Positions 9,000 through 55,296 of a DNA stretch of 64,000 nt are shown here, in pieces (within the stretch, counting starts at the first letter, position 1; each line of letters starts with the position of its first letter). The position numbers and the translations under genes are program-made. This DNA is from Malacoraja senta (Eukaryota): NCBI GenBank assembly GCA_038087875.1, contig CM075987.1, forward strand, positions 21,020,001 through 21,084,000, given 5' to 3'. Under the pieces are notes generated by a model. That model was not told where the DNA came from. It ran no database searches and saw nothing but the letters and a program-made list of their open reading frames with translations.

Positions 9000-9210
9000 A
9001 TGTAGGAAGGAACTGCAGATGCTGGTTTACACCGAAGATCGACACAAAATGCTGGAATAACTCTGCGGGACAGGCAGCATCTCTGGATAGAAGGAATGGG
9101 CGACGTTTCGGGGTCAAGACCCTTCTTCAGACTGAGACCCGAAACATCACCCATTCCTTCTATCCAGAGATGCTGCGTGTCTCGCTGACTTGATCCAGCA
9201 TTTTGTGTCT
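9000..9210. mobile_element. Short fold-back PLE-terminus element (family B), 14-bp TSD
   Basis: Inverted arms. TSD atcttaa(a/g)agaggg at 8986-8999 and 9211-9224. Confidence 0.85.
9099..9133 (-). ncRNA. Minimal type-I hammerhead ribozyme motif (LAMC3 sense strand)
   Basis: Reverse complement is agu-CUGAAGA-A-GGGU(CUUG)ACCCC-GAAACGUC-gcc. Confidence 0.62.
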
Positions 9211-11559
9211 ATCTTAAGAGAGGGGCTTCGGAAGGAAATTGCAGACCTTGGGAACTGGACTGCTGACAGCACTGATCCCAATGGAATGGAGACGGATACG
9301 TGGGTGCAACGATAAAAGGAGGTTATGAATGTGGACTGATGGAGATCAGAGAAAGTGAGAGGGCTTGAGGCTTTCAATGAGGATTCTAGACCTTTCCATC
9401 ATTTGTAGTTCAAGAAACTATCAGAGTCAAAATTCCCAGACCTTCTGTGCTTTTTGTGGTGTAATTACAAACCTTGTCGAACCTCTGACATTATAGTTAG
9501 ATCAGAACTGTTTTTAATTAAACCTGTGAAGCAACCCACTCCACCAGATGAATCTGATGATGGTTACATTGGAATGTTCTCATTTCCAAATGTGAATTAT
9601 GACGACAGTGAAGGGTATCGGAGAGGTAGAATGCCTCGGGCCTGGAAGTACTATGATTAGAGTTAGGTCTAATTAAAAAGGGCACGTTGTTCTTTGCGTG
9701 GAGCCTAGACGGGGAGATGTTTTTCATGGCAGTACAGTATATCCAATCACAATATCCTCTGCACTGGGAACATCTCTAGATACATGGAGTGGGTCCGAAC
9801 TGGTGAGATCAGCCCTTGTCAAATCCCCTGGTCCAAAGAATGGTAAAGGGAGAGAGGCACAGGAGAGGGAAAGGGAGAAATGGACAGACACAAAACACAG
9901 ATTAGCACAGAACATTACCCTGTCATTTTGTATTGCTGCAACTTCAGCTTCCACCACAGTGATAAAACTGCTAACTTTGATGAAGAAAAATCCCTTCAAA
10001 GGACAGCAATTTGCGTTTGATTCCGCAGATACCTATAATCAGAGAAACCCTTTGGGAAAATTCTCTGTAAACCACAGGAAGTTTAGCATTTTTACAATGC
10101 CTTTCACAATCGTAGAATATCTCAGCCTAGGTTTTCACTATTATAGCAAAACAAAAGTTAGTTTGTGCACACCAGGATCCCACATACAGCATGTGGACTG
10201 AACAGAGATTTTGTGTTAGTATTACTGGTAGAAGGTTACTATTGGCCAGCACGACTCTTCAGAATAGTAGTATGGGATCTTTTCCATTTATCCAAGAAGA
10301 CGCGCAGTGCGATGATTCATTTGATGAATGGCACATTAGACGGTGTCCCTCAATGCTGCATTCCTGCATCAACCCAGTTTATATGTGGAATGATTTAACG
10401 TTCAGGTGGCAGAGAGACCTACGAGCAAGCATTATTTTCTGTTCAATATGTTAATCTGATCTGAGGATATCAGTGGCACTCGATTGTTATTTTAACTTGG
10501 AGATGTAGGGTAAATGGTATGTGCTGCAAGTTGTAAAAGGGTCATGGGATATCCTCAGCAACCAGGGGGGAGACAGGAGAGGTCCACAAAGTATTTTCCC
10601 ATGTCCAAGAGCATGTTTGTGCAGTAATCTAACTGACCCTGCAGAAAGTTAAAATCAGCCCTTCAGTTTACATGCCTGAAGTGCCTGAAGCACTGTAGGA
10701 CCATCTTTAGTATTGCTTGACTTTACAGCCACTTTAATCATTTGTGTTGCTTTCAGAGGACTAGTCATACTTTCTCATGTATTAGCCTAAACATTACAAG
10801 GTAGTGTTAATTTAATCAACCATCATTTGTTTGCTCTGCAGGGCTCGGGGCTTGGGATCCTGGAGTTCAGGAAGGGCTTTGGCAAGGTTCTCATTTCCTT
10901 TTACAGTTAAACGTTTGCATGGAGCATGTGCACAGATGCCGCTCCAAGGCGGCAGGTAGGTGACTTCACTTTTATGGGGAATCCCAAGTGAGATTTAAAC
11001 TGGGATGAAACAACAATGAATATATTTCAAAAGTGAGGCAAAATAGTTTTTTTTTTAAATAATCCAATAGACTTTTTTCCATTGGATGTATGGAATTAAG
11101 AATTCATCCGCAGAATCTTCCACAGATGCAACAGGTCAATGACCTCCTTGCCCATTAAACTGTGATTCTACAATGATCAAGCCATCAATCCCACTGTTCC
11201 GGACATATGGAGTATGACCAATTACATTAACAAGAGCTAACGTGAGTGACTACCTCTGAAGAAATGATGTTTGGATTCAGGATATCCACAGCCCCTGCCT
11301 TCACCCCACCCTACACAAAGAATCCCCTTATTGTTCAAAACTCACGAATGAGGGTTGTCATGAGGAAGGTACAGAGGGAGAGGGGAGAGTGATGAAGAGA
11401 TGGATCAGGAAGAAGTAGAATGTTAAGATGTGAGGGGAAGTGGGAAGTTTCTCTTCAGTGCCAGAATAATTGGAGGAAGACTTGCTCTTCCAACAATAAT
11501 GCCATGGATTCTTCCGTATCTATCCAAACGGATAGGAAGGGTTTAATAGGAATAAACAA

Positions 11560-12450
11560 GTCTTTCGCAGATTGAGAGGAGTACCACAGGGTTCAGTGTG
11601 TGGGCTCCAATTATTTCTAATCTACGCCAACAATTTGGACGAGAGGACCAATCGTAATATTTCCGAGTTTGCTGACAACAGAAAACAAAGCACGAATGCA
11701 AAGTGACAAGAATACACCGAGGGTCCGAGGGTAGACTGATATGCTGCGAAAATCATAAAACCTGCAGATACTGGAAATCTGAAATAAAAGCAGAACATGC
11801 TAGAAATAGCAAAACAGGCAGCATATGTGAAAGGAGAAAGACAATTAATGTTTCAAATCAAATACATTTTGACATAATTGAAGAAAAGAGAAAAAACTTT
11901 TTTTTTGCCTAAATAAACAGACAAGACCATGGCTGATGGCTTGTAAAGTGGAGAAATGCATTGGTGTAAAAAACAGAAATGCAGAGTTTTAAAAAAAAAA
12001 TAGTAACAGAATGGGGAATGTTGATCTGTGTGTCCTTACACACAAACTACTGAAAGGTAACATGAAGATTCAGCAGACAGTAATGTTGGCCTTTATTGTA
12101 AGATGATTTGAGTACAAGAAACAGGAATTTATATAGAACCATGGTGAGACCAAACACAGTGTACTATGAACAAATTGAGTCTCCATATCAAAATAAGGAT
12201 ATGCTTGCAATAGAGAGAGGACACTGAAGATGGTTCCTAGGCTGGTGGGTATGAGGAAAGATTGAGTGGATGAGAGATAAAATCTCTAATGTTGAAAAAA
12301 ATGAGAGGTGACATCATTGAGACATACAGGCTCATAGAGCTAGATAATGTAGATGCAACAAAGATACTCCCCAGCTAAGAAATCTAGAACCATGGATCAC
12401 GGTATGAAAATTAGGTTTGGGCCACTTTGGAGTGAAACTTGGAGAAACCT
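11560..12450 (+). mobile_element. Old degenerate CR1 (similar old remnants at ~14300-15340, ~15945-16230, ~20280-20560, ~22900-23610, ~26570-27700, ~28630-29120, ~31845-32050, ~42120-43040)
   Basis: gagtaccacagggttcagtgtgtgggctcc...tttgctgacaac...atgagaggtgacatcattgagacatac. Confidence 0.65.
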
Positions 12451-13357
12451 CCTCATTCAGCAGCCTCTCCCCAAAAATGCACTGACTCAGTAATGCACTG
12501 GCAGCGGTGGTTTGGATGATGAAACTGGGACTGAACCCACAGACCTGAATTGGAAATCAAACCCATGATTCTGACGCCAAGTTGCTACTGGACTGAGTCA
12601 TGGATGCTATGTTTTCAAGTGACATAATTTCAGGCCAATCAGTTGAACAATGATGTGGTAGTGCAATGAAGGGGGTGGAAGATTGCAACCTTCACGTGTT
12701 TCGACTAATGCAATCAACCTCGATGTGCACAAACGGAAGATCAAATAGAACAAGTTGTCCAACAACTTTAGGCTGTGCACGCCACACGAAAGAAGAAGAA
12801 GTGCAATGAAGGAGGTCCACATCTAATTTGAGTCTGTAATAATTACAGCACAGAAATAACCCAATTAAACATTGAGGATGTCCTGTGTCAATCCACATTG
12901 AAAGACTAAACAAGCCATTATCTCAGAGGAGCAAACTTCACTGGGCACTATGCCATGAGACGATTTATGTTTCCAGTGCTTATCGGAGGGCGGAAGTAAC
13001 ACAGGCAAATAAAATGCTGCATCCTTGTACAAATCAAATAAATAAACAAATTGCAGACTGATCAGTCTTCACTTCAAGGGCTCAGCACATCATTTCCAAG
13101 GTCAATTAGTAAGAAAGACTGTCAGTAATATTGGCTTTACTCCTAATAGACTCAAGATGTTGTTAGGTAGGGTAGCACATCTTTACAGAGCAAGGCTGCA
13201 CAGGCGTGCTTGTTTCCAAGAGACCAAACACTGGGGAATCAAAGGCGTAAATAGAAAGAAGAAGAATTGAAGAAAGTCTTGCATTTTTAAAGTCCCTTCT
13301 CAAATTTAGAATATCCCGAAGTTAGTTCCAGTCAGTTGAAAGCTTACAATGCTCTGC

Positions 13358-13558
13358 GATGTCCCACGGTTACGACATGCACAATCGAAATGCTGTCAGT
13401 AGCAGTTTTTATGATTTAAATACTAGTTCAAGTAGGAACCAAAAATGGAGGTTTAGAGCTTTGGGATGTCCCACGGTAGCGACAGGCACAATAGAAATGC
13501 TATCGAAAGTGGAAATTGTTTTAAATACTAGTTCAAGTAGTGATCCAAAAATGCAGGT
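13358..13558. repeat. Diverged tandem duplication, 107-bp period
   Basis: gatgtcccacggt...tttaaatactagttcaagtag..ccaaaaatg starts at both 13358 and 13465. Confidence 0.9.
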
Positions 13559-14544
13559 CCGTAAATGTGTTCATTTTTAAAATAGGGCAACATTTTAATT
13601 CAGTGACGGAATCCCCATCCAGAGCTCCCAACCCCACCACCAGTGGTGCATTGCTCCACCAATTGGTGCCTTGTGCCCACCTGGCATCGGCAGCGCCCAG
13701 GAGAGTTTGAGAGAAAGATGCCACAACCACTGGGAATACCGGATGTGCGTCTCAGTGTCTGGAATCTGGCTGCAGGAACACCATAAATTCATTTACATAC
13801 TAGAAGGTTATATGTTCAAGGATAATAAGAGTTTTTGATTTATATACTCCCCTCAGATTGGGCAGACTATACTTTAAAGACAAACCCATCAATGCCTAAT
13901 GAATAAGGAATTCTGTGCAGGTCCAGGTGCCTGGCTGCCAAAGAACACAGTCAATTAAAAATGATCAATTGCTGCAGCAAATGATCAATTTTGTAGAATT
14001 ACTTCACCGCAACTCTTGATCTGAGCGCTATAAATGACAATATCCATCTCAACGCAGGTAGTTCTGCTTTAACGCGATAGTTATATTCCTATGAAAACTC
14101 ATATTATATTTGTGTTATAAAAACAATTATGTCAGTGGGGAAGAGGGGGTTTGGAGCTAATCTATTTTTCCCCACAGGATTTTGGAAAATAAAGATCTTT
14201 CAATAGCAATGTTTATTTTTATTACGACACACTAACAATACAAAAGTCTATACGTTACATTATTTAACAGAGTATCATTTGCACAAGTGTCAAGATTAGC
14301 CAATCATGCGGTACTTTGTCAAAGGCCTTGATAATGTCCATGTCAACGTCTACCACCCTGTCCTTGTTAATTCTCTGGGTCACCTTAAAAAAAACGTAAC
14401 CAAATTCATGAGACATGATTTCCCATGCACAAAGCCATGCTGACTATTTCTAATCAGTCCTTGCCTTTCCAAGTGCTGGTAGATTCTGTCCTTCAGAATT
14501 CCCTGCAGTCGTTTTCCCATTCTTGAGGTTAGGCTTGTTAGTTC

Positions 14545-15125: not shown

Positions 15126-17095
15126 TAGTTCCCAGACTTGTCTTTGCCACCTTCTTTACCATGCTCATTAGCCACACTCAAGTCTTCCCATACCTCATCC
15201 ATGGCTAAAGATGACGCAATTATCTCTCCCAGGGCCTCTGCAATTTCTTCCTGGATTCCTACAATGTCCTAGGTTACACTTGATCAAGCCCCATGATTTC
15301 ATCCATGTTAATATGCCTTAACACCACCACCAGCTCCCTCGTTAGCAGAATTGCTTAGCTTCCACAACCAACTTTGTGGTGAAAGTCATGACATTACAGC
15401 ACCATCCAGTGTCAAGAGCACTGATCCACAAACAAGAGTTCAAATCCCACTTAAGCAATATGGGAATTTAAATAAAATAAATCTGAAATAATAACTATAT
15501 TCTGCACTTTGTTATCTTTCCCTTCGCTCTACCTATTTTACTTGAGTTTGGCTTGATTGTATTTATGGATAGCGTCATCTGATTTCATTGGATATCATGC
15601 AAATCAAAGCTTTTCACTGTACTTTTGTACACGTGACAATAATAAATCTAAATCTAACCGCTTGCATCAATACCAGATGGCCGGATAAAGCAATCTGCTT
15701 CACAAATATCCTACCCTGCCATTCTTAGGGCAGCATTTTTGGCACAGCAGTTTGAACTGCTGCCTCAAAACTACAGGATGTGGGTCTGATCCTGACCAAT
15801 GCTCTGTCCAGGTGAGATGTTCTCCCTGTGACCACGAGGATTTCTTCCCAATGCACTCTTTCCCTCCCACATCCCACGGATGCGCTGGTAAGTTAAGTGG
15901 CTTCTGCAAATTACCCTTCTGGGCTGAATGGCAAAAACATAGAACATAGAACATAAAACACACAGCTTGCAGCAGAGGACTGGCCCAATGGCTCACAATG
16001 TCTGTGCTGATCATAATGCCAAACTAATCCCTTCTGCCTGCCCTTGTTCCATACACCTCCACTCCCTGTTTCGACCACCTCTCCTGGCAGCATGTTCCAG
16101 GCACCCACCACTTTCTGTGTTAAATATCTTGCTCTGCAGATCTCCTTTAAACTTTCCCCCTCTGACCTTATGGCTGTACCCTCTAGTCTTTGACATTTCC
16201 ACTCCAGCCAAAAGGTTCTGACCGTCTCTCCATTCTTCCACTCTCAGAATTGTATAATGAAGGGTGTCTTAAAGTCGCAGGGATACAGGGAGATAAGGAC
16301 AGGGGAAATAAAACCAGCTACTCTGGTAGTGACAAGCCAATGGATTGAATGACCATCTCTGTGTCATTATAACAAGATGATTATAGAGTACTCCATCTGG
16401 ATTATAGATGACTCCAGACTCACTGATGCGGTTAATTCTTTGAAATATCCCTCGGGGGCAATTGCTGACGAACAAGGCCTTCCCATCTATTGAACAAGTT
16501 TAAAAAAAAACATACTCAGTCCCCCACGATTCTGCTTCATTGCCCTCCATTCTAATCAGCTTTATTTCTTAAGGCACAATTTAACCAGTGCAGGGCCCTT
16601 GGAAACAACTCGCGGTGACTTGAGAAACGAAAATCACATCTGTGCGCTGCTTCCCACCCTCGGGCAGCCTCGCCGACGCAACGATTGTTTTCTATTTAAC
16701 ACCAACCAAATCAACAGAAAATAAATACCAGTACGGAAACGTCTTTACAAGGTATTTATGATCTCAACTTCAATTGAGAACATGCGTTTGCGGCTACCCG
16801 GGGCAGCTGCTCCTCATGCTGCAGCCGGATAAGATGCGTGAGAGCAAATTTCGGTTTAACATTCACAAGATTCGCGCAGTTGATCCACTACCAGTAACGC
16901 ACAGTGACAAGTTTGAAAACTCGCCCTCTTATTCCAACAGGTTCAATAAACGATCCTGCAATTGGAGAAGTTTAAAAGAGCGAGATTGCGATTATAAATA
17001 CTCACCCAGAGGTTGTAAGATGAACCCAGTTGGGAAAACTGGGAAGAATTTGGAGTGGCATGGGCCAAATGCAGGCAGTGGGACTAGCCCAAATG

Positions 17096-17416
17096 CCAAC
17101 ACAAAAAGCTGGAGTAACTCAGCGGGACAGGCAGCATCTCCACAGAGAAGGAATGGGTGACGTTTCGTGGTCGAGACCCTTCTTCAGACCATACCAATGT
17201 CTCTACTCTCTCTCTCTCTCCCCTGTCTGAAGAAGGATCCCGTCCCGTCCCCAGCATTTTGTGCCTGTATCGTCGGTGCAAACCAGCATCTGCATGCAGA
17301 CGGCAGTTCCTTCCTACACAAGGTAGACAAAAAATGCTGGAGAAACTCAGCGGGTGCAGCAGCATCTATGGAGCGAAGGAAATAAATAGGCAACGTTTCG
17401 GGCCGAAACCCTTCTA
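17096..17416. mobile_element. Adjacent family B fold-back and family A PLE-terminus copies
   Basis: Family B arms ~17096-17320 followed directly by a minus-strand family A copy to ~17416. Another partial copy at ~17618-17700. Confidence 0.8.
17156..17190 (-). ncRNA. Minimal type-I hammerhead ribozyme motif (LAMC3 sense strand)
   Basis: Reverse complement is ggu-CUGAAGA-A-GGGU(CUCG)ACCAC-GAAACGUC-acc, with a one-nt insertion in stem II. Confidence 0.62.
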
Positions 17417-18193
17417 AGTTGGGCTGTCACGGGGGAGAAGGCAGGAAAATGCGGGCGAGAGGGACAATAGATCAGCCGTGACCAAATCGCGGAGCAGACT
17501 CGATGGGTCGAATGGCCTAAGTCTGCTCCGGTGTGTCTTTATCATGGTCTTAGTGGTCGAGTTTGCGGTTGCAGGTGCACACGCGAAGAACAGCCGATGC
17601 TGTACATGGACGTTTATGAAGGAACTGCAGATGCTGGAAAATCGAAGGTAGACAAAGGTGCTGGAGAAACTCAGCGGGAGGAAATAGGCAACGTTTCGGG
17701 ATATGGAGCAAGCGCAGGCAAGTTGGACCAGTAGTAGCTGGGACATGTTTGGCCGGTGTGTGGGCAAGTGTGGTCTGTTTCCACACTGGATGCTGGAGGA
17801 ACTCCGCATGTCAGGGAGGGAATAGAAACATAGAAAATAGGTGCAGGAGTAGGCCATTCGGCCCTTCAAGCCTGCACCGCCATTCAATATGATCATGGCT
17901 GATCATCCAACTCAGTATCCTGTACCTGCTTTCTCTCCATACCCCCTGATCCTTTTAGCCACAAGGGCCACATCTAACTCCCTCTTAAATATAGCCAATG
18001 AACTGGCCTCAACTATCTTCTGAGGCAGAGAATTCCACAGATTCACCACTCTCTGTGTGAAAAATGATTTTCTCATCTCGGTCCTAAAAGACTTCCCCTT
18101 ATCCTTAAACTGTGACCCCCCTTGTTCTGGACTTCCCCAACATCGGGAATAATCTTCCTGCATCTAGCCTGTCCAACCCCTTAAGAATTTTGT

Positions 18194-18323
18194 TAAAGAA
18201 GGAACTGCAGATGCTGGAAAATCGAAGGAACACAAAAATGCTGGAGAAACTCAGCGGGTGCAGCAGCATCTATGGAGCGAAGGAAATAGGTAACGTTTCG
18301 GGCCGAAACCCTTCTTCAGACTG
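18194..18323 (-). mobile_element. Short PLE-terminus element (family A) inside a CR1 fragment, ~18-bp TSD
   Basis: accccttaagaat(t/g)ttgt at 18176-18193 and 18340-18357, with 16 nt of filler. Confidence 0.85.
18289..18322 (-). ncRNA. Minimal type-I hammerhead ribozyme motif (LAMC3 sense strand)
   Basis: Reverse complement is agu-CUGAAGA-A-GGGU(UUCG)GCCC-GAAACGUU-acc. Confidence 0.7.
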
Positions 18324-18401
18324 GTGAATTTAAGAATTTACCCCTTAAGAATGTTGTACGTTTCTATAAGATCCCCCGTCAGGAAGGACAGGACAACTCA
18401 C

Positions 18402-20734: not shown

Positions 20735-20937
20735 TTAAAGAAGGAACTGCAGATGCTGGAAAATCGAAGGTACACAAAAATGCTGGAGAAACTCAGCGGG
20801 TGCAGCAGCATCTATGGAGCGAAGGAAATAGGTAACGTTTCGGTCTGAAGAAGGGTTTCGGCCCGAAACGTTACCTATTTCCTTCGCTCCATAGATGCTG
20901 CTGCACCCGCTGAGTTTCTCCAGCATTTTTGTGTACC
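20735..20937. mobile_element. Short fold-back PLE-terminus element (family A) with hammerhead motif, 16-bp TSD
   Basis: Near-perfect inverted arms around ctgaagaagggtttcggcccgaaacgtt. TSD taaagattacgcagtt at 20719-20734 and 20938-20953. Confidence 0.9.
20842..20875 (+). ncRNA. Minimal type-I hammerhead ribozyme motif
   Basis: ggu-CUGAAGA-A-GGGU(UUCG)GCCC-GAAACGUU-acc: both conserved core boxes, stem II with a UUCG loop, and a 3-bp stem I (ggu/acc). Activity untested. Confidence 0.75.
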
Positions 20938-20980
20938 TAAAGATTACGCAGTTGTTGGTTTTTGTTTAAAAAAGTGCATT

Positions 20981-26708: not shown

Positions 26709-26804
26709 AGGTAGACAAAAGTGCTGGAGAAACTCAGCGGGTGAGGCAGCATCTATGGAGCGAAGGAATAGGTGGTGTTTCGGGGCGAGACCCTTCTTCA
26801 GACT
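26709..26804 (-). mobile_element. Short PLE-terminus element, 9-bp TSD
   Basis: tattttggg at 26700-26708 and 26805-26813. Ends at the reverse complement of the hammerhead core. Confidence 0.8.
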
Positions 26805-29877: not shown

Positions 29878-30041
29878 GGAACGCAGCGGGTGTGGCAGCA
29901 TCTATGGAGCGAAGGAAATAGGCAACGTTTCGTCCCGAAACGTTGCCTATTTCCTTCGCTCCATAGATGCTGCCGCACCTGCTGAGTTTCTCCAGCATTT
30001 TTGTCTACCTTCGATTTTCCAACATCTGCAGTTCCTTCTTG
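29878..30041. mobile_element. Short fold-back PLE-terminus element (family A), 14-bp TSD
   Basis: Inverted arms centred on gcaacgtttcgtcccgaaacgttgc. TSD aaccaata(t/c)gcaca at 29864-29877 and 30042-30055. Confidence 0.88.
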
Positions 30042-30453: not shown

Positions 30454-30653
30454 NNNNNNNNNNNNNNNNNNNNNNNNNNNNNNNNNNNNNNNNNNNNNNN
30501 NNNNNNNNNNNNNNNNNNNNNNNNNNNNNNNNNNNNNNNNNNNNNNNNNNNNNNNNNNNNNNNNNNNNNNNNNNNNNNNNNNNNNNNNNNNNNNNNNNNN
30601 NNNNNNNNNNNNNNNNNNNNNNNNNNNNNNNNNNNNNNNNNNNNNNNNNNNNN
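30454..30653. other. Assembly gap (200 N)
   Basis: Run of exactly 200 n. Confidence 1.
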
Positions 30654-32066: not shown

Positions 32067-32280
32067 GTGTCGGAAGGAACTGCATATGCTGCTTTACACC
32101 GAAGATAGACACAAAAAGCTGGAGCAACTCAGTGGGTCAGGCAACATCTCTGGTATACCTCTAGTTTCCCTCTCCCCTGACTCTCAGTCTCAAGAAGGGT
32201 CTCGACCCGAAATGTCACATTCCTCTTCTCTAGAGATGCTGCCTGACCCACTGAGTTACTTCAGCATTTTGTGTCTATTT
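32067..32280. mobile_element. Short fold-back PLE-terminus element (family B), 12-bp TSD
   Basis: TSD tccatatgatat at 32055-32066 and 32281-32292. Confidence 0.85.
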
Positions 32281-32363
32281 TCCATATGATATTGCTGAGT
32301 GACTGAAAATCATGCGTATTTCATCAATGATGAGGTTTGACTTCTTGAATATCTACCTATCTA

Positions 32364-33700: not shown

Positions 33701-35474
33701 TATTTATATATAAACATCATCTGTGTAATGCAGCTGAGGCTGGAGTAACTGGTTCTGGACTGCAGATGACACAGGTTGAACAGCTTTGCATTCATCGTGC
33801 AGATTAGCTCCATTGCAGTGATCTGTGCCTTGACTGTCCTGGAATTGGTTGCAGTGGGCCTGTTGTTAAAATCACAGCTTGCATGCCTTCATGTAGCAGA
33901 TGAGAATGGAGACCAAATTTTGAGAGCAGCAAATTTGAGAAGGATTCTCGTCACTCGGAATTATGTAACATCAGACCATGTTTCGTGGTTATATTGATCT
34001 GTCCATTTTTCTTGGAGTTGGCACATGGTGAAGATCACGTTCCATGTACCTCTTCATGGATGGAGTCCACGGTGCAATTTGGGAGCACTTCTGGGGAGCA
34101 CTTCTGGCCAGTACTCTGACCACTGGCTTACCGCAAACATAAACAAACTCTCACCTTTTCTTCAACCCCTGTCCTTCACCATTCTACCAAAAACATGAAC
34201 ACCTCCGACGTTTCCCTATCTCTGTCCTCTTTCCCCTCTCAATTCTATTCCTCTTCACTTAAGTCCTTCCTGGTTGGCCATCTCCTCATCCTTCTCTTGA
34301 TTCCTTCACAACCTCTCCAGGCTCCATGGCCTGCTGCATCCCATTCCCCAAGTGCTACCTGCTTGCTGTGGCTTTCCCATACACATGCACACTGTCACAC
34401 AAACAGCAATATTAATTTTCATGCACATGTACGTACACACACAAGCACAATTATATGCACACATTCACAGACATGGTCTCTTTAAGTGAGGTTATCAATT
34501 TAATGGCATTTGAGGGATAATTTTGTACTGTAGTCCTAAACTGAGATAAAAGCTTCCACTGGGATTGCAGAGACAGGCTAGTTACATCTCACCATTCTGC
34601 ACTGGATTTAAACCCACGTCTCAGAGGAACAAAGACACTTCACTTATCCTGAAGCACTCCCCACTTGAAAAGATCTGGAAATGTCAAATATCATTAATTC
34701 ACTTTATGGTCTGTCACGTGCATAAAGAGATGGAGATGTGTGGGGATTATTTGTCTTGTTATTAATATGAATAGAATATTCAGGCAAAAGAAAGCTCCTC
34801 AGGAAAGATGTATTGATCTTGGAGGTGTACAGTGCAGCTTTAGCAGAATTAAAGGATAACATCTTGAGGACAAGTTGTAGGAACAGGTTGTATTGATTGA
34901 AGACAATCACATTGAAGAGTTAAAAGTGATAAAGAATTAAATAAAGTATCTTCCAGTTGATCTATTTGCTCCAGGATAATCCACAACAAAGAAGCACAAT
35001 TCAAAATTAGATTGGCTCAGCAAGTAGCAATCCTTTACATAAAAGTGAATGAAAATCTAAGACTGTCTTCACCAAATGTTTGTGCATATTGGAAACTAAT
35101 CAAAATTGTCTAGAATGAAATTTGATAAACTGTGGTGAATTAAGTAATATCAAGGGATGAAAGGAGTTGAGGTTACATCACCCAAGCAGCCAGATGAAGG
35201 GAGGGCAGATTTCAGGAGTTGTTCCGATCCTTGATAATGGTATTTCGCCAAGAAGATGAAATAAAGAGGGAAAACAAGATGGGAAAAGCAAGTAATAGAG
35301 AGGAGAAAAGAACAATTGATACATGTGTTTCATCATGGACCAGAATCTCTCATAAGACGGCAGTTTGTTCAATGATAGTCCAATTGAACAGTCCCAGCTT
35401 TGTATTAATTAAAGACACCACATATTTGGAAAAGGGGTTTGAAGAAGGGTTTGACCCAAAGCATATTTGGAAAA

Positions 35475-35605
35475 GGGTCTGAAGAAGGGCTTCGACCCGA
35501 AACGTTGCCTATTTCCTTCGCTCCATTGATGCTGCTTCACCCACCGAGTTTCTCCAGCATTTTTGTCTACCTTCGATTTTCCAGCATCTGCAGTTTCTTC
35601 TTAAA
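35475..35605 (+). mobile_element. Short PLE-terminus element (family A), 13-bp TSD
   Basis: Begins at the hammerhead motif and ends cagcatctgcagtttcttcttaaa. catatttggaaaa at 35462-35474 and 35606-35618 (third copy at 35421-35433). Confidence 0.88.
35476..35509 (+). ncRNA. Minimal type-I hammerhead ribozyme motif
   Basis: ggu-CUGAAGA-A-GGG(CUUCGA)CCC-GAAACGUU-gcc. Confidence 0.68.
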
Positions 35606-44319: not shown

Positions 44320-45375
44320 TAAAGTGATACCATGTGGAAACAGGCCCTCCGGCCCAACTTGCCCACACTAGCCAACATGTCCCAGCTACACTAGTCCCAC
44401 CTGCTCACATTTGGTCCATATCCCTCCAAATCTGCCATATCCATGTACCTGTCCAACTGCTTCTTAAATGGTGGGATAGTCCTTACCTCCTCTGGCAGTT
44501 TGTTCCATACATCCTCCATCCTTTGTGTGAAAAAGTTACCCCTCAGACTCCTATTAAATCTTTTCCCCTTCACCATAAACCTATGTCCTCTGGTCCTCGA
44601 TTCACCTACTCTGGGCAAGAGACTTGGTGCATCTACCCAATCTATTTCTCTCATGATGTTATTCACCTCAATAAGATAGAGTCCCTGCCCACGCAACCTC
44701 TGCCTAGACCTCAGATCCTCTAGCTCTGGCAACATCCTTGTAAATCATCTCTGTACCCTTTCCAGCTTGACAACATCTTTCCTATAACATGGTGCCCAGA
44801 ACTGAACACAATACTCTAAATGCAGCCTCACCAATGTCTTATACAACTGCAACATGACCTCCCAACTTCTATACTCAATAGGTACACAAAAATGCTGGAG
44901 AAACTCAGCGGGTGCAGCAGCATCTATGGAGCGAAGGAAATAGGGAACATTTCGGGCCGAAACCCTTCTTCAGACTGATAGGGGGTGGGGAGAAGAAAGG
45001 AAAAAAGGCGGAGGAGGAGCCCGAGGGCTGGGGGAGGGGAGGAGACAACCAGAAGGCTGATGAAGGGGAGGGGACAGCAAGGGCTAGCAGAATCCCAATT
45101 GCTGTACCTCCTCTGGCAGTTTGTTCCATACACCAACATGCCAAATGCCTTTTTGACCACCCTATCTACCTGTGACCCCACCTTCAATGAACCATTGCAC
45201 CTGCACTCCTAGATCCCTTTGCTCTACAACACTCCCCAGAGCCCTACAATTCACTGTTCACAATTCACAATTCCAATTCACAATCCAGAGCCCTACAATT
45301 CACTGTTCCAATTCACAATTTGAAGTGCATATAGGTCCTGCCCATGTTAGACTTCCCAAAATGCAACAGCTCACG
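44320..45375 (-). mobile_element. CR1 fragment inserted in the old PLE
   Basis: SRTRGHRFMVKGKRFNRSLRGNFFTQRMEDVWNKLPEEV. Confidence 0.82.
44880..45085 (-). mobile_element. Family A PLE 3' terminus inside a CR1 fragment
   Basis: ggtacacaaaaatgctggagaaactcagc...cccttcttcagact plus a purine-rich extension. Confidence 0.8.
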
Positions 45376-47749: not shown

Positions 47750-48042
47750 TCCCCTCAAGGTATGCCTACTTTGAAGATGGTCTCTTTCTGACAAGAATTC
47801 TGCAACACCCAATCTCCCTGCTCCCCCTCTGTGATCATCGTCCCCTTTCATCTGTGTTTTCACAAATTACGCTACCCTATCTCTATATTTCCCTCTCCCC
47901 CTCACTCACAATCTGAAGAAGGGTCTCGACCCGAAATGTCACCCATTCCTCCTCTCCAGAGATGCTGCCTGTCCCGTTGAATTACTCCAGCACTCTGTGT
48001 CTATCTTTGGTGTAAACCAGCATCTGCTGTTCCTTCCTACAC
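47750..48042 (+). mobile_element. Family B PLE 3' terminus
   Basis: Pyrimidine-rich leader, then ctgaagaagggtctcgacccgaaatgtc, then tail ...cagcatctgctgttccttcctacac. Confidence 0.8.
47910..47943 (+). ncRNA. Minimal type-I hammerhead ribozyme motif
   Basis: CUGAAGA-A-GGGU(CUCG)ACCC-GAAAUGUC-acc. Confidence 0.62.
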
Positions 48043-48792: not shown

Positions 48793-48889
48793 CAACGTGT
48801 GTGACTCTGAACAATTCCACAATGTGTGTGACTGAACAATTCCACAATGTGTGTGACTGAACAATTCCACAACGTGTGTGACTCTGAAC
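48793..48889. repeat. Minisatellite, 25-27-bp unit, ~3.7 copies
   Basis: (caa[c/t]gtgtgtgact[ct]gaacaattcca)n. Confidence 0.93.
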
Positions 48890-48989
48890 TGCTCCCCTGA
48901 AATGTCGCGGCAAGTCTCTGCTTGGCAGATGCACAATGGTCTGAAATCCACATCCCGCCTCGCAAACTACACACTCTTCCCCACCCCCA

Positions 48990-49026
48990 ACACACACACA
49001 CACACAACACACACACACACACACAC
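48990..49026. repeat. (CA)n microsatellite
   Basis: Read directly. Confidence 0.95.
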
Positions 49027-49953
49027 GGCTAGCTTTTCGAGGCAAAAACAGAAAGGTCAATAAATGCTGGTCTTGTCAGAAACTCCTCATCCGAGATTTT
49101 AAACAATTGCGTGCTGTGAATTAATGAACAGCCCGCTTTAATAATTAACCCTGCACCATGGTTCCTCGGAGCGGTGAGCACCTTGTAGACCCTTGCAGAA
49201 CGGTGTGACTGTGTGGCAGACGTGTTTCTGACACAGTTCATGCGAAGCAGATGAGACTGTTTGAGGATTGTACCCGACTTAAACATCCCTAACTAGCAGT
49301 GCATTAACAAGGAGACGAGGCTGTGGTCTCGGTCACATCTGCTGCCCTGGGGGTTGCTTGGGACTGAGTTGTGCACAGAGGCAGCAGCAGCAACAGCGAG
49401 GTACCTGCAGACGTGAAGCATAACATGGGACCAGTGACAGATGACGCGATTAGGGTCGGTTCCAACAATCCCTTCTCCCCGATACCTTCGCTGCCAGATT
49501 CACACTGGAGGTTGTGGCTGTCAGCGGGCAGCTGCTGATCGCGCCCTGTGTCAGCTTCCACACCCACCCACACAACAAACCTCTCTTTAATACCGATGCA
49601 GACGAAATGAGCCGCTGAGAGGAAGACTTGCGTCGGAACACCGAGGCTCCGAAACCTTCCATCAGATCAAACTACTTGGAAAAGCAAGAAAGTGGACATT
49701 TTATATTGGGGTTTCTGACCTCTGGAAGACATCCTCACAAACTAAAAAACTGTCTCTCCACTCAGAATACACACAGAAGACCGTTATCTCTGAGAGTTTA
49801 AATCATCTTTAAAATCCCTCTTTATAACCCTACTCGCGATCTGCCTTTCAACCACTCTCTCTCTCTCTGTATATCCCTGCCTCTCCACGTTTACTTGTAT
49901 CTCTAACCGTCTTTCCCTAAACAATTATCCCTCCTCCAGCCCCCCCCCTTACC

Positions 49954-49955
<2 letters not shown>

Positions 49956-50026
<71 letters not shown>

Positions 50027-50038
50027 CCCCCCCCCCCC
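49956..50038. repeat. (CT)n microsatellite plus poly-C just upstream of the FIBCD1 start codon
   Basis: About 34 CT units followed by a C run. Confidence 0.95.
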
Positions 50039-50149
50039 TCCCTTGCTATCTCGATCTTTTATTCTGAGCAGTAGAACCGGTGTCGAGTCAGGGATGGAAA
50101 ACAACACAAGATTCCTGAAGAATTAGACACAGCCCCGGATGACTCCGGC

Positions 50150-50215
50150 ATGGTGAACGACAGGTGGAAAAGTACGGATGGGGGGCAGCAGGATAGCCCG
50201 GAGCAAAACACCCAG
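50150..50215 (+). CDS. FIBCD1: Fibrinogen C domain-containing protein 1, coding exon 1 (cytoplasmic N-terminus)
   Basis: ATG at 50150 gives MVNDRWKSTDGGQQDSPEQNTQ followed by a phase-0 donor CAG|GTAAT. It matches the remembered human N-terminus MVNDRWKTMGG...KPQ and lies divergent from LAMC3, as in human. Confidence 0.88.
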
Positions 50216-52400
50216 GTAATATGTTTTTTTTTACCCCCACAAGCACGGCGCAGGTTAAAAACAATTCTTCCACAAAGCCTGTATTAAGAGTGAATTTTTG
50301 TTTTGTTTTATGGAGACATCGGGTTTTGTTATCTGTGTGGGAACATAAAGAAACGGGAGGAATTTTCCCACAATGTTTAGTCACAATAAATGACAATACT
50401 TCTCGCGACGTCGAAAGTGGACAACATTCACATTGCTCAAATGCACGAGAGGTGGGAAGTGTTATGGTGGCTTGTCCGTTGTGAATAATCACCCTTTGTT
50501 GGTAGCTTCTCTGTTTAATACCATGTTGTGTTACGGTGAGAGCAGTGGCTATGCAATAACAGGTTCCCTTTGCACCTTTTTCGTGAAACATTGCTGGTGT
50601 TCCGCATGTCTTGTTTGTGCCTCTCCTCTCTCGGCTGTAAAACATTTCCCCCCTTCGCTTTAGTCTGACTTTATCTCTGCTATATTCAGTACTACACCTT
50701 ATATTCCAACATCTAACTGTAACCTGGGCATGAGGCGATGAAGGCTGCTGCGGTTTATCGAGGTCTGCTCGACTTATTTATTAAAGATCTGACAGAACTC
50801 CCTGGTGAAAGGGATATTTATTTATTGCACCAGAGGCGGAGGAAAGATTACATAAAACCCTGCAAAGCCCGTCAAAAATAGAAGGAATGCGAGGAATAAA
50901 CAACAGTTTTAAGAAGGAAAGTTAACGTTGAGGCTGTAAACACTGAATGTGGATAATTGTAAACACTTAACGCTTCGGTTCACCAGTTGTTGGGTATGTT
51001 GCTGGATCTAACACTGGGAGATATCTTTCGCCCCACAGTACATGCGCCCGCAAATGTACTTTAAATTCCACCAAATTCTTTAAATGTTTCCTGCTTACAA
51101 GTGTTTGTATTATTCATACGGTTAAGTATGTATTTCTACAATTTATTTTTGCAGCATGCCTGATTCTTAACATTACTACTGTTGTCTTGTGTAATTTAAA
51201 GATTGTCATTGTAATATTGTTTTACATTGTTCAACACTAATATTAAGCAATAGCAGCCATTCGGCATCAAGGGTGTAAGAAGGAACTGCAGATGCTGGTT
51301 TAAACCGAAGATAGACACAAAAAGCTGGAGCAACTCAGCAGGACAGGCAGCATCTCTGGAGAGAAGATTGGGTGATGTTTCGGGTCAAGATCCTTCTTCA
51401 GACATAAGGGAAACGAGAGATATAGACGGAGATGGGGAGAGATAAAGAACAATGAATGAAAAATATGCAAAACAAATACCGATGATAAAGGAAACAGGCC
51501 ATTGTTAGCTGTTTGTAGGGTGAAAATGAGAAGCTAGTGCGACTTGGGTGGGGGAGGGTTAGAGAGAGAGAAGGACTGCCGGGGCTACCTGGTGAGAGAA
51601 ATCAATATTCATACCACTGGGCTGTACGTTGCCCAAGCGAAATATGAGATGCTGTTCCTCCAATTTACGTTTAGCCTCACTCTGACAATGGAGGAGACCG
51701 AGGACAGAAAGGTCTGTGTAGGATTGGGAAGGAGGATTAAAGTGTCCTGCAACCGGGAGATCAGGTTGGTTCACGCGGGCTGAGTGAAGATGTTCCGAGA
51801 AACACCAGTCTGCGTTTGATCTCGCTGCTGTATGAGTTCACATCTTGAACAACGGATACAGTAGATGAGGTTGGAGGAGGTGCAAGTGAACCTCCAGAGT
51901 CGAGGGAGGAGGTATAGCGTCAGGTGTTGCATCTTCTGCGGTTGCGGGGGAAGGTACCTAGGGAGGGGGCGGTTTGGGTGGGAAGGGATGCGTTAACCAG
52001 GGAGTTGCGGAGGGAACGGTCTCTGCGGAAGGCGGAAAGGTGTTAAGATGGGAAAATGTGGCTGGTGGTGGGATCCCGTTGGAAGTGGCAGAAATTTCAG
52101 GGGATTATGTGTTGTATGCGACGGCTGTTGGGGTGGAAGGTAAGGACTGGGGGGACCCTGTCTCTTTTGCGACTAGGGGGAGGGGGAGCAAGGGCAGAGC
52201 TGTGGGGTACCGAGGAGACATGAGTGAGGGCCTCATCTGTGATCTGAGAGGGGAACCCCCATTCCCTAAAGAATGAGGACATCTCGCATGTTCTTGTATG
52301 GAACACCTCATCTTGGGTGCAGATGCGGTGTGGACGGAAGAATTGGGAGTAAGGGATAGAGTCTTTGCAGGAAGCAGGATGGGAAGAAGTGTAGTCGAGA

Positions 52401-52816
52401 TTTCCCCAGGTACTTTCCCCTGCAACCACAGAAGATGCAACACCTGTCGCTATACATCCTCCCTCGACTCTGTCCAGAGACCCCGACAGTCCTTTCAGGT
52501 TAGGCAGAGGTTCACTTGCACCTCCTCCAACCTCATCCACTGTATCCGTTGTTCAAGACGTGGAGTCTTATACATTGGTGAGACCACACGCAGACTGGGC
52601 GATCGTTTCGCGGAACACCTTCTTCGCTCAGCCCGCGTGAACCCACCTGATCTCCCGGTTGCAGGACACTTTAATTCTCCTTCCCATTCCTACACAGACT
52701 TTTCTGTCCTCGGTCAGAGTGAGGCTAAACGCAAATTGGAGGAACAGCATCTCATATTTTGCTTGGGCACCTTACAGCCCAGTGGTATGAATATTGATTT
52801 CTCTCACTTCAGGTAG
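52401..52816 (+). pseudogene. PLE GIY-YIG endonuclease fragment
   Basis: PGTFPCNHRRCNTC...FTCTSSNLIHCIRCSRRGVLYIGETTRRLGDRFAEH...VAGHFN...LEEQHLIFCLGTLQPSGMN. Confidence 0.9.
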
Positions 52817-52983
52817 TCCCGGCATTCCCTCTCTCTCAATCCCTCCCCACCCGTTGCACTATCTTCTCATTTTCACCCTACAATGTCCTGTTTCCCATCG
52901 TTACTTTTTTGCATATCTTTCATTCATTGTTCTTTATCTCTCCACATCACCGTTTATATCTCTCGTTTCCCTTATAACCAACC

Positions 52984-53017
52984 AGTCTGAAGAAGGGTCT
53001 CGACCCGAAACTTCACC
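52984..53017 (+). ncRNA. Hammerhead motif in the PLE terminal repeat (FIBCD1 sense strand)
   Basis: CUGAAGA-A-GGGU(CUCG)ACCC-GAAACUUC-acc, about 170 nt after the GIY-YIG stop codon. Confidence 0.62.
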
Positions 53018-55296
53018 CATTCCTTCTGTCCTGCTGAGTTACTCCAGCTTTTTGTGTCTATCTTCGGCATCAAGGGTCCCGACCGAAACGTCACTTATCC
53101 ATGTTCTCCAGAGATGCTGCCTGACCCGCTGAGTTGCTCCAGCACTTTTATTGTGTCTTTTTTTGTAAACAAGCATCTACTTATGTCAACATCAATACAA
53201 ACTATTTTACGCTCTTCACATTAATACCCCCCCCCCCCATTCTTCATTCAACACCACAACTTTACGCTACTGAAAACAAATGATCACAATCCCATTGAAT
53301 TTCAAAACTCTTCAACTTTCTCACTGTTTCACATGATTCTATAATACACACCACTATGTTAACCGGTATTATTATACAGCAATCCATGCTATTCGTCACG
53401 ATTTAATATTGTTTTTTAGCTTTCCGCAATTTGTTACATTTGTTTATGCTGGACTCACAAGGTCATTCTTCACCTACCAATGCATACTGTTCAACAATAT
53501 GTTTTCCTCTATTCACAAGATTACCCAAATCTTTATATTCCATTCTGGTCCCTGAATCTATTCCACCATTCAACAGGATCATGGTCTGTCCTTAACAGCT
53601 CTGCCTGATTTAGTTTATTTACCCATAAAACCCTTGCCTAACAAAGTTCTATCAATTGACCCCAGCACATATTGTATGAAAGTCTGCTCTCAACCTCAAT
53701 GAATGAAAGGCTTTGTTCTAATTTTAAGGTTATGCCCTTCTATTCTAAACCTCGCTCACAAGAGGTTTCCTATCTAACCCATCAAATCCCTTTAATCACC
53801 TTAAACACCATAATTAGATCAACACTTAATCTCTCAAACTGGCATTTTAAGATTTGCCGAAGTAACAGGTCCTCTTATATTAACTCTACATTCGTCACAA
53901 CTCCCCTTTTTCATCGTTTCCTCTGTGACTTAGAGTTGGTTTGGTTGATACAGGTGGACTAGGATTGTTCCATGTTTGTTGCTTGTTCACAACAACTATC
54001 CTGCTTCAACAGCCAAAAATATTCGCCTCGCCTGCAATTTTCAAATCCTTTGTTCTCGCTGCTTACAAAATCAATCAATAACATTTTCCATCTTTCAATT
54101 CAGTCGGGATTTTAACAACAGAAGGTATGGATGTGAAGTTCCACCAGTCAAACCCTTAAACACACAAACAGAACTTCAGGATCAGGCCAGCATGGAATTA
54201 ATATTGTGGCAAGAACACAGCGATTTACTAGTAATGCATGCCATATAACAGCAAAGAAAATAAGGCCCGAGCTGACGCAGCATTGCATAGATTATTCCCG
54301 CTTTTTAAAATGATATGTATAATCTGCAACAGACAGATGCTGCAGCAGAGTCGAACAGAGTTGTTCTGAAGCCCCCAGGAATTAAAGAATGATCTCCAAG
54401 TCACCGTACTGAACAAAAATGTAAGAGGAACTTAAAAGTATGTTTTTGTCGGGTTTTTTTAAAGCATTAGTTATAAAACGATTAGAAATAAAGAGAAAAT
54501 AGAACAGGCGGGTTAGTTGGCACTCAGAAAACGAGGTGATGGGACCTCCAGGGATATCCAGCTGCAGTTGACTATCTCTGAGCTAGAAAATATTTAGCTA
54601 TAATCGAGTTTTTAAAAATAATATTTTGTTGAAAAATGTTGATCCTGAAGAAAAAGTAGATGAAGTCTCTCTCCTTGAGTACGCAGTTTCAGTGACCCGT
54701 CTCATCCAACCGTGGGCATCACACTGTGATAGGGACCAGCGGTAATGGTCTTGAACGGACTTGAAGCAGCAGAGCCTTGAGTGATCATGCTTCTGTGCTC
54801 TGTAGGCCGAGCGGACAAGATAAATATGAGTGTATTTGAGATTATCGGAGTAGAGGTCAGTGAAGTCGAAGAGCGAAGTGTGATGAGCACATTTTCATGC
54901 AAAATGGGATATGTAAAACCTGACGTTCAAAGCATAAATAAAAATTGCCACTTCAGATTAGTAGGCATAAACATTTCACTGTGGTAACATTTTGTGTATC
55001 GCTCTGCAGTTGATATCATTGGTGTTGTTTTATATTAGAAACTAATTGCCAGGGAGAATGAAAATTCCCTTGAAAAATCAGGTGAGTTTCTCAAGGTATG
55101 CTGATACACTCAGAAAGTTGAAAGTTACTCAGCTAAGTTGTCCTTCTCCCTTTATTCAATTTTCAACTCCAGGACACTGTTTTTGTTGGAATTTTGAGAA
55201 CAAATTTCTAGCCCAATGATTTTACTGTACGAGGAAAGACTTAATCCTCACAACCCATCTCAATTTAAATGAGGATTTTCTGCGTGTAGGAATTAC

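What the first reader, a model, noticed from the sequence alone, without database searches (positions are those of the whole stretch)
9000..53180. Population of short, TSD-flanked, hammerhead-bearing Penelope-derived elements (ribozyme SINE-like system)
Seen: about 15 copies of a non-coding PLE-terminus repeat. At least seven are discrete ~95-215-bp insertions with their own 9-18-bp TSDs (9000-9210, 18194-18323, 20735-20937, 26709-26804, 29878-30041, 32067-32280, 35475-35605). Most contain CUGAAGA-A-GGGN(loop)NCCC-GAAACGUH. The same sequence forms the 3' terminus of the GIY-YIG element at 51275-53062. Known: these are the two hammerhead core boxes, PLE termini carry minimal type-I hammerheads with a rudimentary palindromic helix III thought to act as dimers, and an extra nucleotide after A9 occurs in some natural hammerheads. 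Inference: single-arm copies repeatedly begin within a few nt of CUGAAGA (18323, 26804, 35475). That suggests either a discrete non-autonomous RNA mobilised by the PLE RT, or an RT that stalls at the ribozyme fold. I do not know whether this has been described in chondrichthyans.
Basis: partly seen in the sequence, partly recalled or inferred. Interest (0 to 1): 0.8.

Follow-up and report, generated by a model that had tools for sequence, protein, structure and literature searches.

The report
Hammerhead-bearing Penelope retroelement end fragments
These short repeats are the end pieces that Penelope-like jumping genes leave behind when they copy only their last 95-130 bases, hammerhead ribozyme motif included; the kind is already known, but here it is very abundant and its ends are unusually sharp.

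Summary
All seven short insertions have target-site duplications (TSDs), and the hammerhead-like motif occurs 6 times against 0 in 100 shuffles. The same sequence ends a GIY-YIG Penelope-like element (PLE) fragment at about 51274-53063.

The window holds 32 repeat arms, not about 15. A 263-kb unbiased sample gives 0.38 arms per kb (3.7% of bases).

Ends are sharp genome-wide. About half of arms with an intact hammerhead word stop 0-6 nt upstream of CUGAAGA. 3' ends fall at two fixed sites, which match the published PLE "tail" signature. No sampled arm starts at the ribozyme cleavage site.

At least four PLE families with different 3'UTRs give such short copies. In one family they match the pseudo-LTR (pLTR) of copies with open frames of 900-1261 aa.

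My reading: these are solo or head-to-head pLTR insertions of Neptune-like PLEs, a described kind, not a separate SINE. [quoted passage not shown] This step is inferred, and RNA reads did not settle it.

Self-cleavage was not tested. This scan has noted PLE-type minimal hammerheads before on other genomes, each judged a known kind.

The parts
9000..9210 (-). Head-to-head pLTR pair. The tail-bearing arm is 9001-9135 (-) with a full hammerhead motif at 9105-9130. The short-end arm is 9136-9216 (+) and starts in helix II.
   Evidence: TSD CCCTCT[C/T]TTAAGAT.
18194..18339 (-). Single-arm solo pLTR with tail. It starts at CAGTCTGAAGA after 16 extra bases. The motif at 18295-18319 is intact.
   Evidence: TSD 17 of 18.
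20737..20937 (-). Head-to-head pair. The tail-bearing arm is 20735-20845 (-) and starts at CCGAAAC. The short-end arm is 20840-20946 (+) with a full motif at 20845-20869.
   Evidence: TSD of 17 matches.
26709..26804 (-). Single-arm solo pLTR with a short 3' end. It starts at AGTCTGAAGA. The core boxes are present but the sequence reads GAAACAC, so the helix III and cleavage triplet are mutated.
   Evidence: TSD CCCAAAATA.
29878..30041 (+). Head-to-head pair whose two arms both begin in the 3' strand of helix II. There is no CUGAAGA box.
   Evidence: TSD 13 of 14.
32067..32278 (-). Head-to-head pair. The tail-bearing arm is 32068-32153 (-) and starts at CCAGAGATG. The other arm is 32144-32285 (+). 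It reaches about 40 nt upstream of the box, ends at the short site, and has a mutated box (CTCAAGA).
   Evidence: TSD 13 of 14.
35475..35602 (+). Single-arm solo pLTR with tail. It starts at GGGTCTGAAGA, and the motif at 35479-35503 is intact. It is inserted into an older decayed copy.
   Evidence: TSD 15 of 16.
51274..53063 (+). 5'-truncated PLE insertion in the usual head-to-head form. The inverted tail-bearing arm is about 51274-51894 (-). The forward arm is about 51895-53063 (+) and carries the zinc-finger linker and GIY-YIG ORF at 52277-52816. It ends at the short site. The box at 52987-53011 reads GAAACTTC.
   Evidence: duplication (TCGG)CATCAAGGG; the arms are 82% identical over 611 bp.
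53072..53178 (+). Older arm of a third subfamily. It was the target of the 51274-53063 insertion.
17081..17700 (-). Cluster of four decayed arms: 17081-17190, 17250-17318, 17296-17415 and 17613-17700.
44873..44989 (-). Arm that extends upstream into the pyrimidine-rich 3'UTR of the ORF-bearing family (…CCCACCCCCTATCAGT). It ends at the short site.
47884..48041 (+). Arm with about 30 nt of upstream 3'UTR and a tail.
1592..7789 (.).

Best explanation
The short repeats are minimal insertion products of several co-resident endonuclease-bearing PLE families. They occur as solo pLTRs and as head-to-head pLTR pairs.

Shown:
1. In the full unit the order is ORF stop, about 110 nt of pyrimidine-rich 3'UTR, then (Y)CAGT-CUGAAGA-A-helix II-GAAACGUH. 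About 67 nt of body follows, then a roughly 35-nt tail, then 34 nt, then the next ORF's ATG.
2. Arms end 3' at one of two fixed sites: the short site (…GTGTACC^T^T^C) or the tail site (…CTT[T/A]AAC(A)(C)).
3. About half of arms end 5' within 0-6 nt upstream of CUGAAGA.

Inferred:
1. The PLE reverse transcriptase starts at one of its two internal start sites, as published for the Anolis element PAc. It runs off a template RNA whose 5' end lies just before the hammerhead. The most likely cause is that pLTR transcription starts at the initiator-like YCAGTCT. The cDNA is then only about 95 or 130 nt long.
2. Head-to-head pairs arise when both target strands prime. The two cDNAs then join at or near the palindromic helix II.
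3. The hammerhead rides along as the 5'-terminal 30 nt of this unit. Self-cleaved RNA is not the template.
4. Most copies are dead on arrival and decay.
For: Structure of the unit:
- L052 is a tandem junction that carries the whole order given above.
- L051 is a TSD-flanked copy with a 916-aa open frame whose 3' end matches the short A-type copies.
- The ORF has RT, then a CX4CxxC linker, then GIY-YIG.
- The genome search listed 150 ORF matches. 47,022 first-look candidates were reported, and open frames reach 1261 aa.

5' hot spot:
- 54 of 130 arms not chosen by the query end at profile positions 57-68.
- 11 of 21 TSD-checked single arms start within -4..0 of the box.
- Genome-wide, the A-type box word has 17,718 exact hits. 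Of the first 100 rows, 44 run on into the 3'UTR and 19 belong to one tandem array. The other 37 stop at 0 to -6.
- The B-type box word has 27,079 hits. Of the first 100 rows, about 45 run on into one of at least three recurrent 3'UTR contexts, and about 55 stop at the edge.

3' ends:
- Of the first 100 rows of 45,405 hits, 46 continue into the tail and 40 end within …ACC/T/T/C.
- Of 100 tail rows, only 2-3 continue into the 5'UTR.

Independent reads: the best-supported loose ends lie at L052 509/513, 607-609 and 643. Depth steps up 4- to 6-fold at the edge in DNA contigs.

Cleavage site: none of the 100 listed rows starts at the cleavage site; 61 of these rows lie outside one array.

Pair geometry:
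- Abutting pairs are 25 head-to-head, 4 direct and 4 tail-to-tail.
- Of the 25 head-to-head pairs, 14 combine a short end with a tail.

Published background:
- PMC11167929 (main text read): two RT start sites, the tail, extension of both strands, and ribozyme cleavage not needed.
- PMC3846280 (passages): solo and inverted pLTRs, and palindromes at junctions.
- PMC8557442 (passages): the tail is often at one end only.
Against: The RNA 5' end was not observed.
- The one raw RNA run (poly-A, from another species) showed no place where molecules begin or end.
- Coverage was equal in both mate directions, and 93% of reads ran on into unlike flanks. This means embedded copies, not a discrete RNA.

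The promoter evidence is weak.
- A TATA-like word about 30 nt upstream is seen in one family only.
- In Adineta vaga the published TATA and Inr lie inside the pLTR, not at its edge (PMC3846280).

The start points spread over about 6 nt. My hand tally over searches gives 0:14, -1:17, -2:24, -3:14, -4:4, -5:16, -6:3.

An extra G at the junction is not clearly enriched in the same rows.

The row classifications were done by eye. The anchoring letter B slightly favours extended copies.
Confidence: 0.6

Rival explanations
1. A true self-propagating non-autonomous element. The 95-130-nt unit would carry its own internal Pol II promoter (initiator at +1 and a downstream element). Short copies would then breed short copies, using the PLE protein in trans.
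For: - Drosophila virilis Penelope has an internal Inr-plus-DPE promoter, and everything needed for transcription lies in the pLTR (PMC2377424, passages).
- YCAGTCT is kept in at least four families whose 3'UTRs otherwise differ.
- An ACGT-containing word sits about +26 to +31 from the edge.
- The G variant after the cleavage site dominates: 82% of DNA word depth. The two ORF-linked copies I read both carry A.
- The copy number is very high.
Against: - 2,396 exact copies join the family 3'UTR to the G variant, so that variant is not private to short copies.
- Short copies arise in every PLE family seen, and no diagnostic differences were found.
- No strand-specific RNA and no molecule starts were seen.
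- Only 15 of 113 arms that cover the motif keep it intact, as expected for neutral decay.
Confidence: 0.2
2. The reverse transcriptase stops at the ribozyme fold, or at protein bound to it, so the sharp 5' end is a polymerase roadblock and not an RNA end.
For: - In 25 head-to-head pairs, 9 have at least one arm ending inside helix II or GAAAC. Six of these pair such an arm with an arm ending at the edge.
- Helix II is a GC stem, with a UUCG loop in one family.
- The PAc protein binds this region and assists cleavage (PMC11167929).
Against: - The main hot spot lies 8-14 nt beyond helix II in the direction of synthesis. By then the polymerase has already copied the whole motif.
- About half of arms read straight through into the 3'UTR.
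Confidence: 0.12
3. Retrozyme-like cycle. Hammerhead cleavage and ligation would give circular or unit-length RNAs, which are then copied.
For: Non-LTR retrozymes are proposed PLE derivatives and were reported in one chondrichthyan (bioRxiv 10.64898/2026.07.22.740005, results section read).
Against: - None of the 100 rows starts at the cleavage site.
- The ends are fixed and not permuted.
- Only 4 of 33 abutting pairs are direct, and no array longer than two units was seen in 358 kb.
- The one array seen has a 2.45-kb period and looks like a segmental duplication.
Confidence: 0.03

Closest known systems
Minimal hammerheads (min-HHR) in the pLTRs of metazoan Penelope-like elements (Cervera and De la Pena 2014, PMC4209133; whole main text read)
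   Same: - A CUGANGA box.
- One unpaired base between A9 and 10.1.
- A G10.1-C11.1 pair.
- GAAA followed directly by palindromic CG, then U and H with no loop 3.
- Location in PLE end repeats.
- Mostly dispersed as single motifs, or as close pairs on opposite strands.
   Different: - Helix I is only about 2 bp (GU/AC) here. The paper's common form has 4-5 bp, and its D. virilis variant has 2 bp.
- Helix II is 4 bp with a tetraloop, not 6-8 bp.
- Chondrichthyans are not named in that paper.
- Cleavage was not tested here.
Solo and inverted pLTRs with an optional 30-40-bp 'tail' in EN+ PLEs (Arkhipova et al. 2013, PMC3846280; Craig et al. 2021, PMC8557442; Frangieh et al. 2024, PMC11167929)
   Same: - TSDs of variable length.
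- Heavy 5' truncation.
- Head-to-head arms.
- A tail usually on one arm only.
- A palindrome at the inverted junction.
- Two fixed 3' ends about 35 nt apart.
- No insertion or read ends at the ribozyme cut site.
   Different: - The pLTR-only product dominates here (order of 10^5-10^6 arms).
- The unit is very short (95-130 bp).
- Its 5' edge coincides with the start of the hammerhead in at least four families. I did not find this coincidence stated in the passages I read.
Non-LTR retrozymes of animals (Cervera and de la Pena 2020, PMC7229834; Li, Clavereau and Pollet 2026 preprint)
   Same: Non-coding, hammerhead-bearing, PLE-related sequences with dispersed 'solo' monomers.
   Different: Retrozymes are head-to-tail arrays of 170-400-nt units. 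They carry canonical type-I hammerheads and are expressed as circular RNAs. The elements here are single or head-to-head copies with minimal hammerheads and fixed ends.
SINEs
   Same: Short, non-coding, very abundant, TSD-flanked, and dependent on another element's reverse transcriptase.
   Different: No tRNA, 7SL or 5S head and no Pol III boxes were seen. The whole unit is a piece of the autonomous element. The SINE criteria are recalled, not taken from a call.

Membership tests
PLE minimal hammerhead (min-HHR) | Core boxes CUGANGA and GAAA, separated by a helix II hairpin | tested here: met
   6 exact matches in the window against 0 in 100 shuffles. Genome-wide there are 17,718 and 27,079 exact hits to the two box-plus-helix-II words.
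PLE minimal hammerhead (min-HHR) | An unpaired base between A9 and 10.1, and a G10.1-C11.1 pair | tested here: met
   CUGAAGA-A-GGG…CCC-GAAAC in all 6 matches. The feature is as listed in PMC4209133.
PLE minimal hammerhead (min-HHR) | No loop 3, palindromic 15.2-16.2, then U16.1 and H17 | tested here: met
   GAAACGUU or GAAACGUC in 4 of the 6 window matches. The other two read GAAACAC and GAAACUU.
PLE minimal hammerhead (min-HHR) | Helix I of 4-5 bp (2 bp in the D. virilis variant) | tested here: inconclusive
   Only GU/AC (2 bp) can pair between the bases before the box and those after the cut site. This holds with or without the 3'UTR.
PLE minimal hammerhead (min-HHR) | Self-cleavage, as a dimer or with protein help | not testable with these tools
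   No read or insertion ends at the cut site. This does not test catalysis.
Rfam hammerhead families | A score at or above the family's gathering threshold | tested here: not met
   0 matches at gathering. No hammerhead family appears among the 18 matches at E up to 10. This is expected for a motif without helix III.
EN+ Penelope-like element (Neptune-like) | [quoted passage not shown] | tested here: met
   The L051 frame has RVT_1 at residues 356-525 (E 9.6e-6) and GIY-YIG at 776-809 (E 0.001). Both are below Pfam's curated cut-offs. The nearest Atlas clusters score 0.97 and carry RVT_1 and GIY-YIG. YIDD and LIYIGET words are present.
EN+ Penelope-like element (Neptune-like) | A CX2-5CxxC zinc-finger-like linker before the endonuclease (Neptune/Nematis) | tested here: met
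   CNRKRCNTC in L051 and CNHRRCNTC in the window ORF. The criterion is from PMC8557442 passages. No phylogeny was made.
EN+ Penelope-like element (Neptune-like) | pLTRs from partial tandems, an optional 30-40-bp tail, inverted 5'-truncated arms, and TSDs | tested here: met
   Tandem junction in L052. Tail against short ends is 46 to 40 of 100 rows. 25 of 33 abutting pairs are head-to-head. TSDs.
Non-LTR retrozyme | Head-to-tail arrays of hammerhead-bearing units, and circular RNA | tested here: not met
   4 of 33 abutting pairs are direct, and none is longer than two units. No back-joined reads were reported in RNA (table 5).
SINE | Its own Pol III promoter head, distinct from the partner element | tested here: not met
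   The unit begins at the hammerhead box and matches the PLE pLTR throughout. No RNA gene family was detected.

The most novel reading that the evidence does not exclude
The 95-130-nt pLTR unit is a self-sufficient Pol II transcription unit that starts exactly at the hammerhead. It would then be a self-propagating 'pLTR-SINE' that has outrun its parent PLEs to several hundred thousand copies. The hammerhead, or the CAGUCUG and ACGU palindromes around it, would serve as the 5' handle that pairs two template RNAs for the two-strand priming that gives head-to-head insertions.
Probability: 0.15. Interest if true: 0.6.

Novelty: new member of a known kind. Interest (0 to 1): 0.33.

Why it matters
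The PLE transposition mechanism is still poorly understood. This genome holds a very large natural record of its smallest products.

That record agrees with three in vitro claims made for one lizard element: two internal RT start sites, priming on both strands, and no need for ribozyme cleavage. It extends them to a distant vertebrate and to several PLE families.

It also adds one point worth testing: a fixed 5' end right at the hammerhead. For genome annotation, these arms make up a few percent of the DNA. They should be labelled as PLE pLTR fragments, not as a new SINE or as microRNA-like hairpins.

Tried and rejected
- **Rfam.** Nothing at gathering. The sub-threshold 'MIR1507/MIR2118' hits are just the palindromic head-to-head pairs.
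- **RNA runs.** No RNA holder is listed for the source species. Only one raw RNA run was available, and it is from a related organism.
- **Laid reads.** They gave no molecule starts or ends and no spliced joints in RNA. The transcription-start idea, the cleavage question and a possible intron ending at CAG therefore stay open.
- **Cap-derived extra G.** In my hand tally, the base before AGT or GT is not clearly G-rich. GGGT is frequent, but part of that is a duplicated CTGAAGAAGGGT.
- **TATA box.** It is seen in one family only.
- **Shared sequence after the tail.** 64 tail-bearing arms were compared and none shared downstream sequence. The 5'UTR only appeared once a tandem junction was fetched.
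- **Walking upstream from L030.** This failed because that copy is itself truncated.
- **Folding.** The 130-nt unit is not unusually stable (z = -1.7). Co-folding gave an extended duplex, not a hammerhead.
- **Covariation in helix II.** Not attempted, because the families differ only by U-A against U-G.
- **Earlier notes of this scan.** The word search with all terms and the search by sequence found none. The broader word search listed notes only on other genomes.

Full report
**What is in the window**

The motif CTGAAGANGGG-N(3-12)-CCCGAAAC occurs 6 times, against none in 100 shuffles. Rfam finds no hammerhead at gathering or at E up to 10. Its best sub-threshold hits are plant microRNA models laid over near-perfect palindromes at 20790-20916 and 29883-29984.

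I built a profile from nine natural copies. CUGAAGA starts at column 67, the cleavage site follows about column 94, the short 3' end lies at about 160-165, and the tail end at about 195. This profile finds 32 arms in the window. It finds 165 arms in 358 kb: the window, 20 arbitrarily placed 10-kb stretches of the same 1.94-Gb genome, and 29 loci picked by similarity. In the 263,200 unbiased bases there are 99 arms covering 3.7% of the DNA. Scaled naively, that is about 0.7 million arms.

**The seven insertions**

Each has a flanking duplication. Over all sampled DNA, a duplication of 10 or more matches flanks 22 of 132 elements, against 1 of 121 shifted controls.

- Three of the seven are single arms: 18194, 26709 and 35475.
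- Four are head-to-head pairs: 9000, 20737, 29878 and 32067.
- Four keep the motif with an ACGU-H end.
- The GIY-YIG element at about 51274-53063 is built the same way on a larger scale. It has an inverted tail-bearing arm, then a forward arm that ends at the short site and carries the endonuclease ORF. It is flanked by (TCGG)CATCAAGGG and sits in an older arm.

**The parent elements**

The genome search listed 150 matches to a reverse-transcriptase piece, and 47,022 first-look candidates were reported. Open frames reach 1261 aa.

- **L051** is a TSD-flanked, 5'-truncated copy with a 916-aa open frame. Its 3' end matches the young 'A-type' short copies and stops at the short site.
- **L052** is a tandem junction. 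It carries the endonuclease end, a stop codon, and about 110 nt of pyrimidine-rich 3'UTR ending …CCCCCTATCAGT. Then come the hammerhead, the body, the tail …CTTTAACAC, 34 nt, and the ATG of the next ORF of about 1197 aa.

The frame shows RVT_1 and GIY-YIG in that order, both under Pfam's curated cut-offs. The nearest Atlas clusters carry the same domains. A CX4CxxC linker points to the Neptune/Nematis type (criterion from PMC8557442).

**Ends, genome-wide**

Exact pattern counts over the whole assembly are complete, and each call lists its first 100 places. I classified the listed rows by eye.

*5' edge, A-type box word.* There are 17,718 hits. Of the first 100 rows, 44 continue into the family 3'UTR and 19 are one 2.45-kb-period array. 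The other 37 diverge 0 to 6 nt upstream of the box.

*5' edge, B-type box word.* There are 27,079 hits. About 45 of the first 100 rows continue into one of at least three recurrent 3'UTR contexts, all ending YCAGT. About 55 diverge at the edge, and about 21 of those abut an inverted arm.

*Other samples agree.* 54 of 130 profile hits have 5' ends at columns 57-68. 11 of 21 TSD-checked single arms start at the edge.

*3' ends.* Of the first 100 rows of 45,405 hits, 46 run into the tail and 40 stop within ACC/T/T/C. Of 100 tail rows, 2-3 continue into the 5'UTR.

*Cleavage site.* None of the 100 listed rows begins at the cleavage site; 61 of these rows lie outside the array.

*Laid reads and contigs on L052.* The best-supported loose ends lie at 509/513, 607-609 and 643, which are the same three boundaries.

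**Pairs**

Abutting arms are head-to-head in 25 of 33 cases. Of those 25 pairs, 14 combine a short end with a tail. If arms combined freely, about 9 of the 19 pairs with both ends classed would do so. In 18 of the 25 pairs, at least one arm reaches the 5' edge. In 6 pairs the partner stops inside helix II or GAAAC.

**Reading**

These features are the published signatures of EN+ PLE insertion.

- Minimal hammerheads sit in pLTRs and are mostly dispersed singly or as close opposite-strand pairs (PMC4209133).
- Solo and inverted pLTRs occur, with a tail on one arm and palindromes at the junction (PMC3846280; PMC8557442).
- There are two internal RT start sites that define the tail. Both strands are extended, and the ribozyme is dispensable (PMC11167929).

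So the short copies are pLTR-only products of ordinary PLE activity. They come from several families at once, not from a separate SINE.

What I did not find stated in the passages I read is that the 5' edge of the unit coincides with the start of the hammerhead. [quoted passage not shown] The likely cause is a transcription start at the initiator-like YCAGTCT, which is conserved across families whose 3'UTRs otherwise differ.

This step is inferred. The only raw RNA run was poly-A selected and from another species. It showed embedded copies on both strands and no molecule starts. A roadblock to the polymerase fits the second arms of pairs better than it fits the main edge. A self-propagating short element with an internal promoter remains possible. 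However, 2,396 copies link the commonest short-copy variant to the family 3'UTR.

**Limits**

- Catalysis was not tested.
- Helix I can form only about 2 bp.
- Only 15 of 113 arms that cover the motif keep it intact.
- Supplements of the cited papers were not opened. Those of PMC4209133 and PMC11167929 may show end distributions that bear on the novelty of the 5' edge.
- Papers: I read the main text of PMC11167929 and PMC4209133 (parts 1-2 of 4) and the results of the 2026 preprint. For PMC8557442, PMC3846280, PMC2377424 and PMC7229834 I read passages only.
- Searches for prior description in cartilaginous fishes gave nothing specific beyond that preprint's single, unnamed species.

Noticed in passing
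G000 contig C1, about 3.87-4.03 Mb (not in the window): A tandem array with a period of about 2.45 kb. Each unit holds two opposite repeat arms with their own private mutations. It looks like a segmental amplification of one old insertion site.
   Followed up: no
L052:505-520 and window copies such as 18316-18326: The bases around the 5' edge read (Y)CAG-T-CTG. This is a 7-nt near-palindrome that overlaps C3-G5 of the hammerhead core, and it is kept in at least four PLE families. It is preceded by a long pyrimidine tract, so it also looks like a 3' splice site. In D. virilis, a PLE intron is reported to end at the 5' end of helix I (PMC4209133).
   Followed up: partly
window 18194-18323 (-): The first 9-10 nt of the unit (UGAAGAAGG) are complementary to the last bases of the tail (CCUUCUU). 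The predicted fold of the tailed unit is therefore a 5'-3' panhandle that would compete with the hammerhead core.
   Followed up: no
window 35435-35474 and 53064-53178: Two new insertions sit inside older decayed arms of the same repeat. This fits the reported habit of PLEs of inserting into their own copies.
   Followed up: partly
L002, L010, L012, L014 and L018 (similarity-picked loci): Many B-type arms carry internal deletions between GATGCTG and CTGAG, apparently between short direct CTG repeats.
   Followed up: no
rows 12, 25 and 88; window 35475; L024:323: Some arms start with an extra GGGT or with a duplicated CTGAAGAAGGGT. With GGU in place of AGU, helix I could reach 3-4 bp. The origin of these extras is unexplained.
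   Followed up: partly
window 30454-30653: A run of 200 N, which is an assembly gap.
   Followed up: no
window 51305-51894 against 52507-53067: The two arms of the one TSD-flanked PLE insertion are only 82% identical. That is low if both were copied from one template in one event.
   Followed up: no
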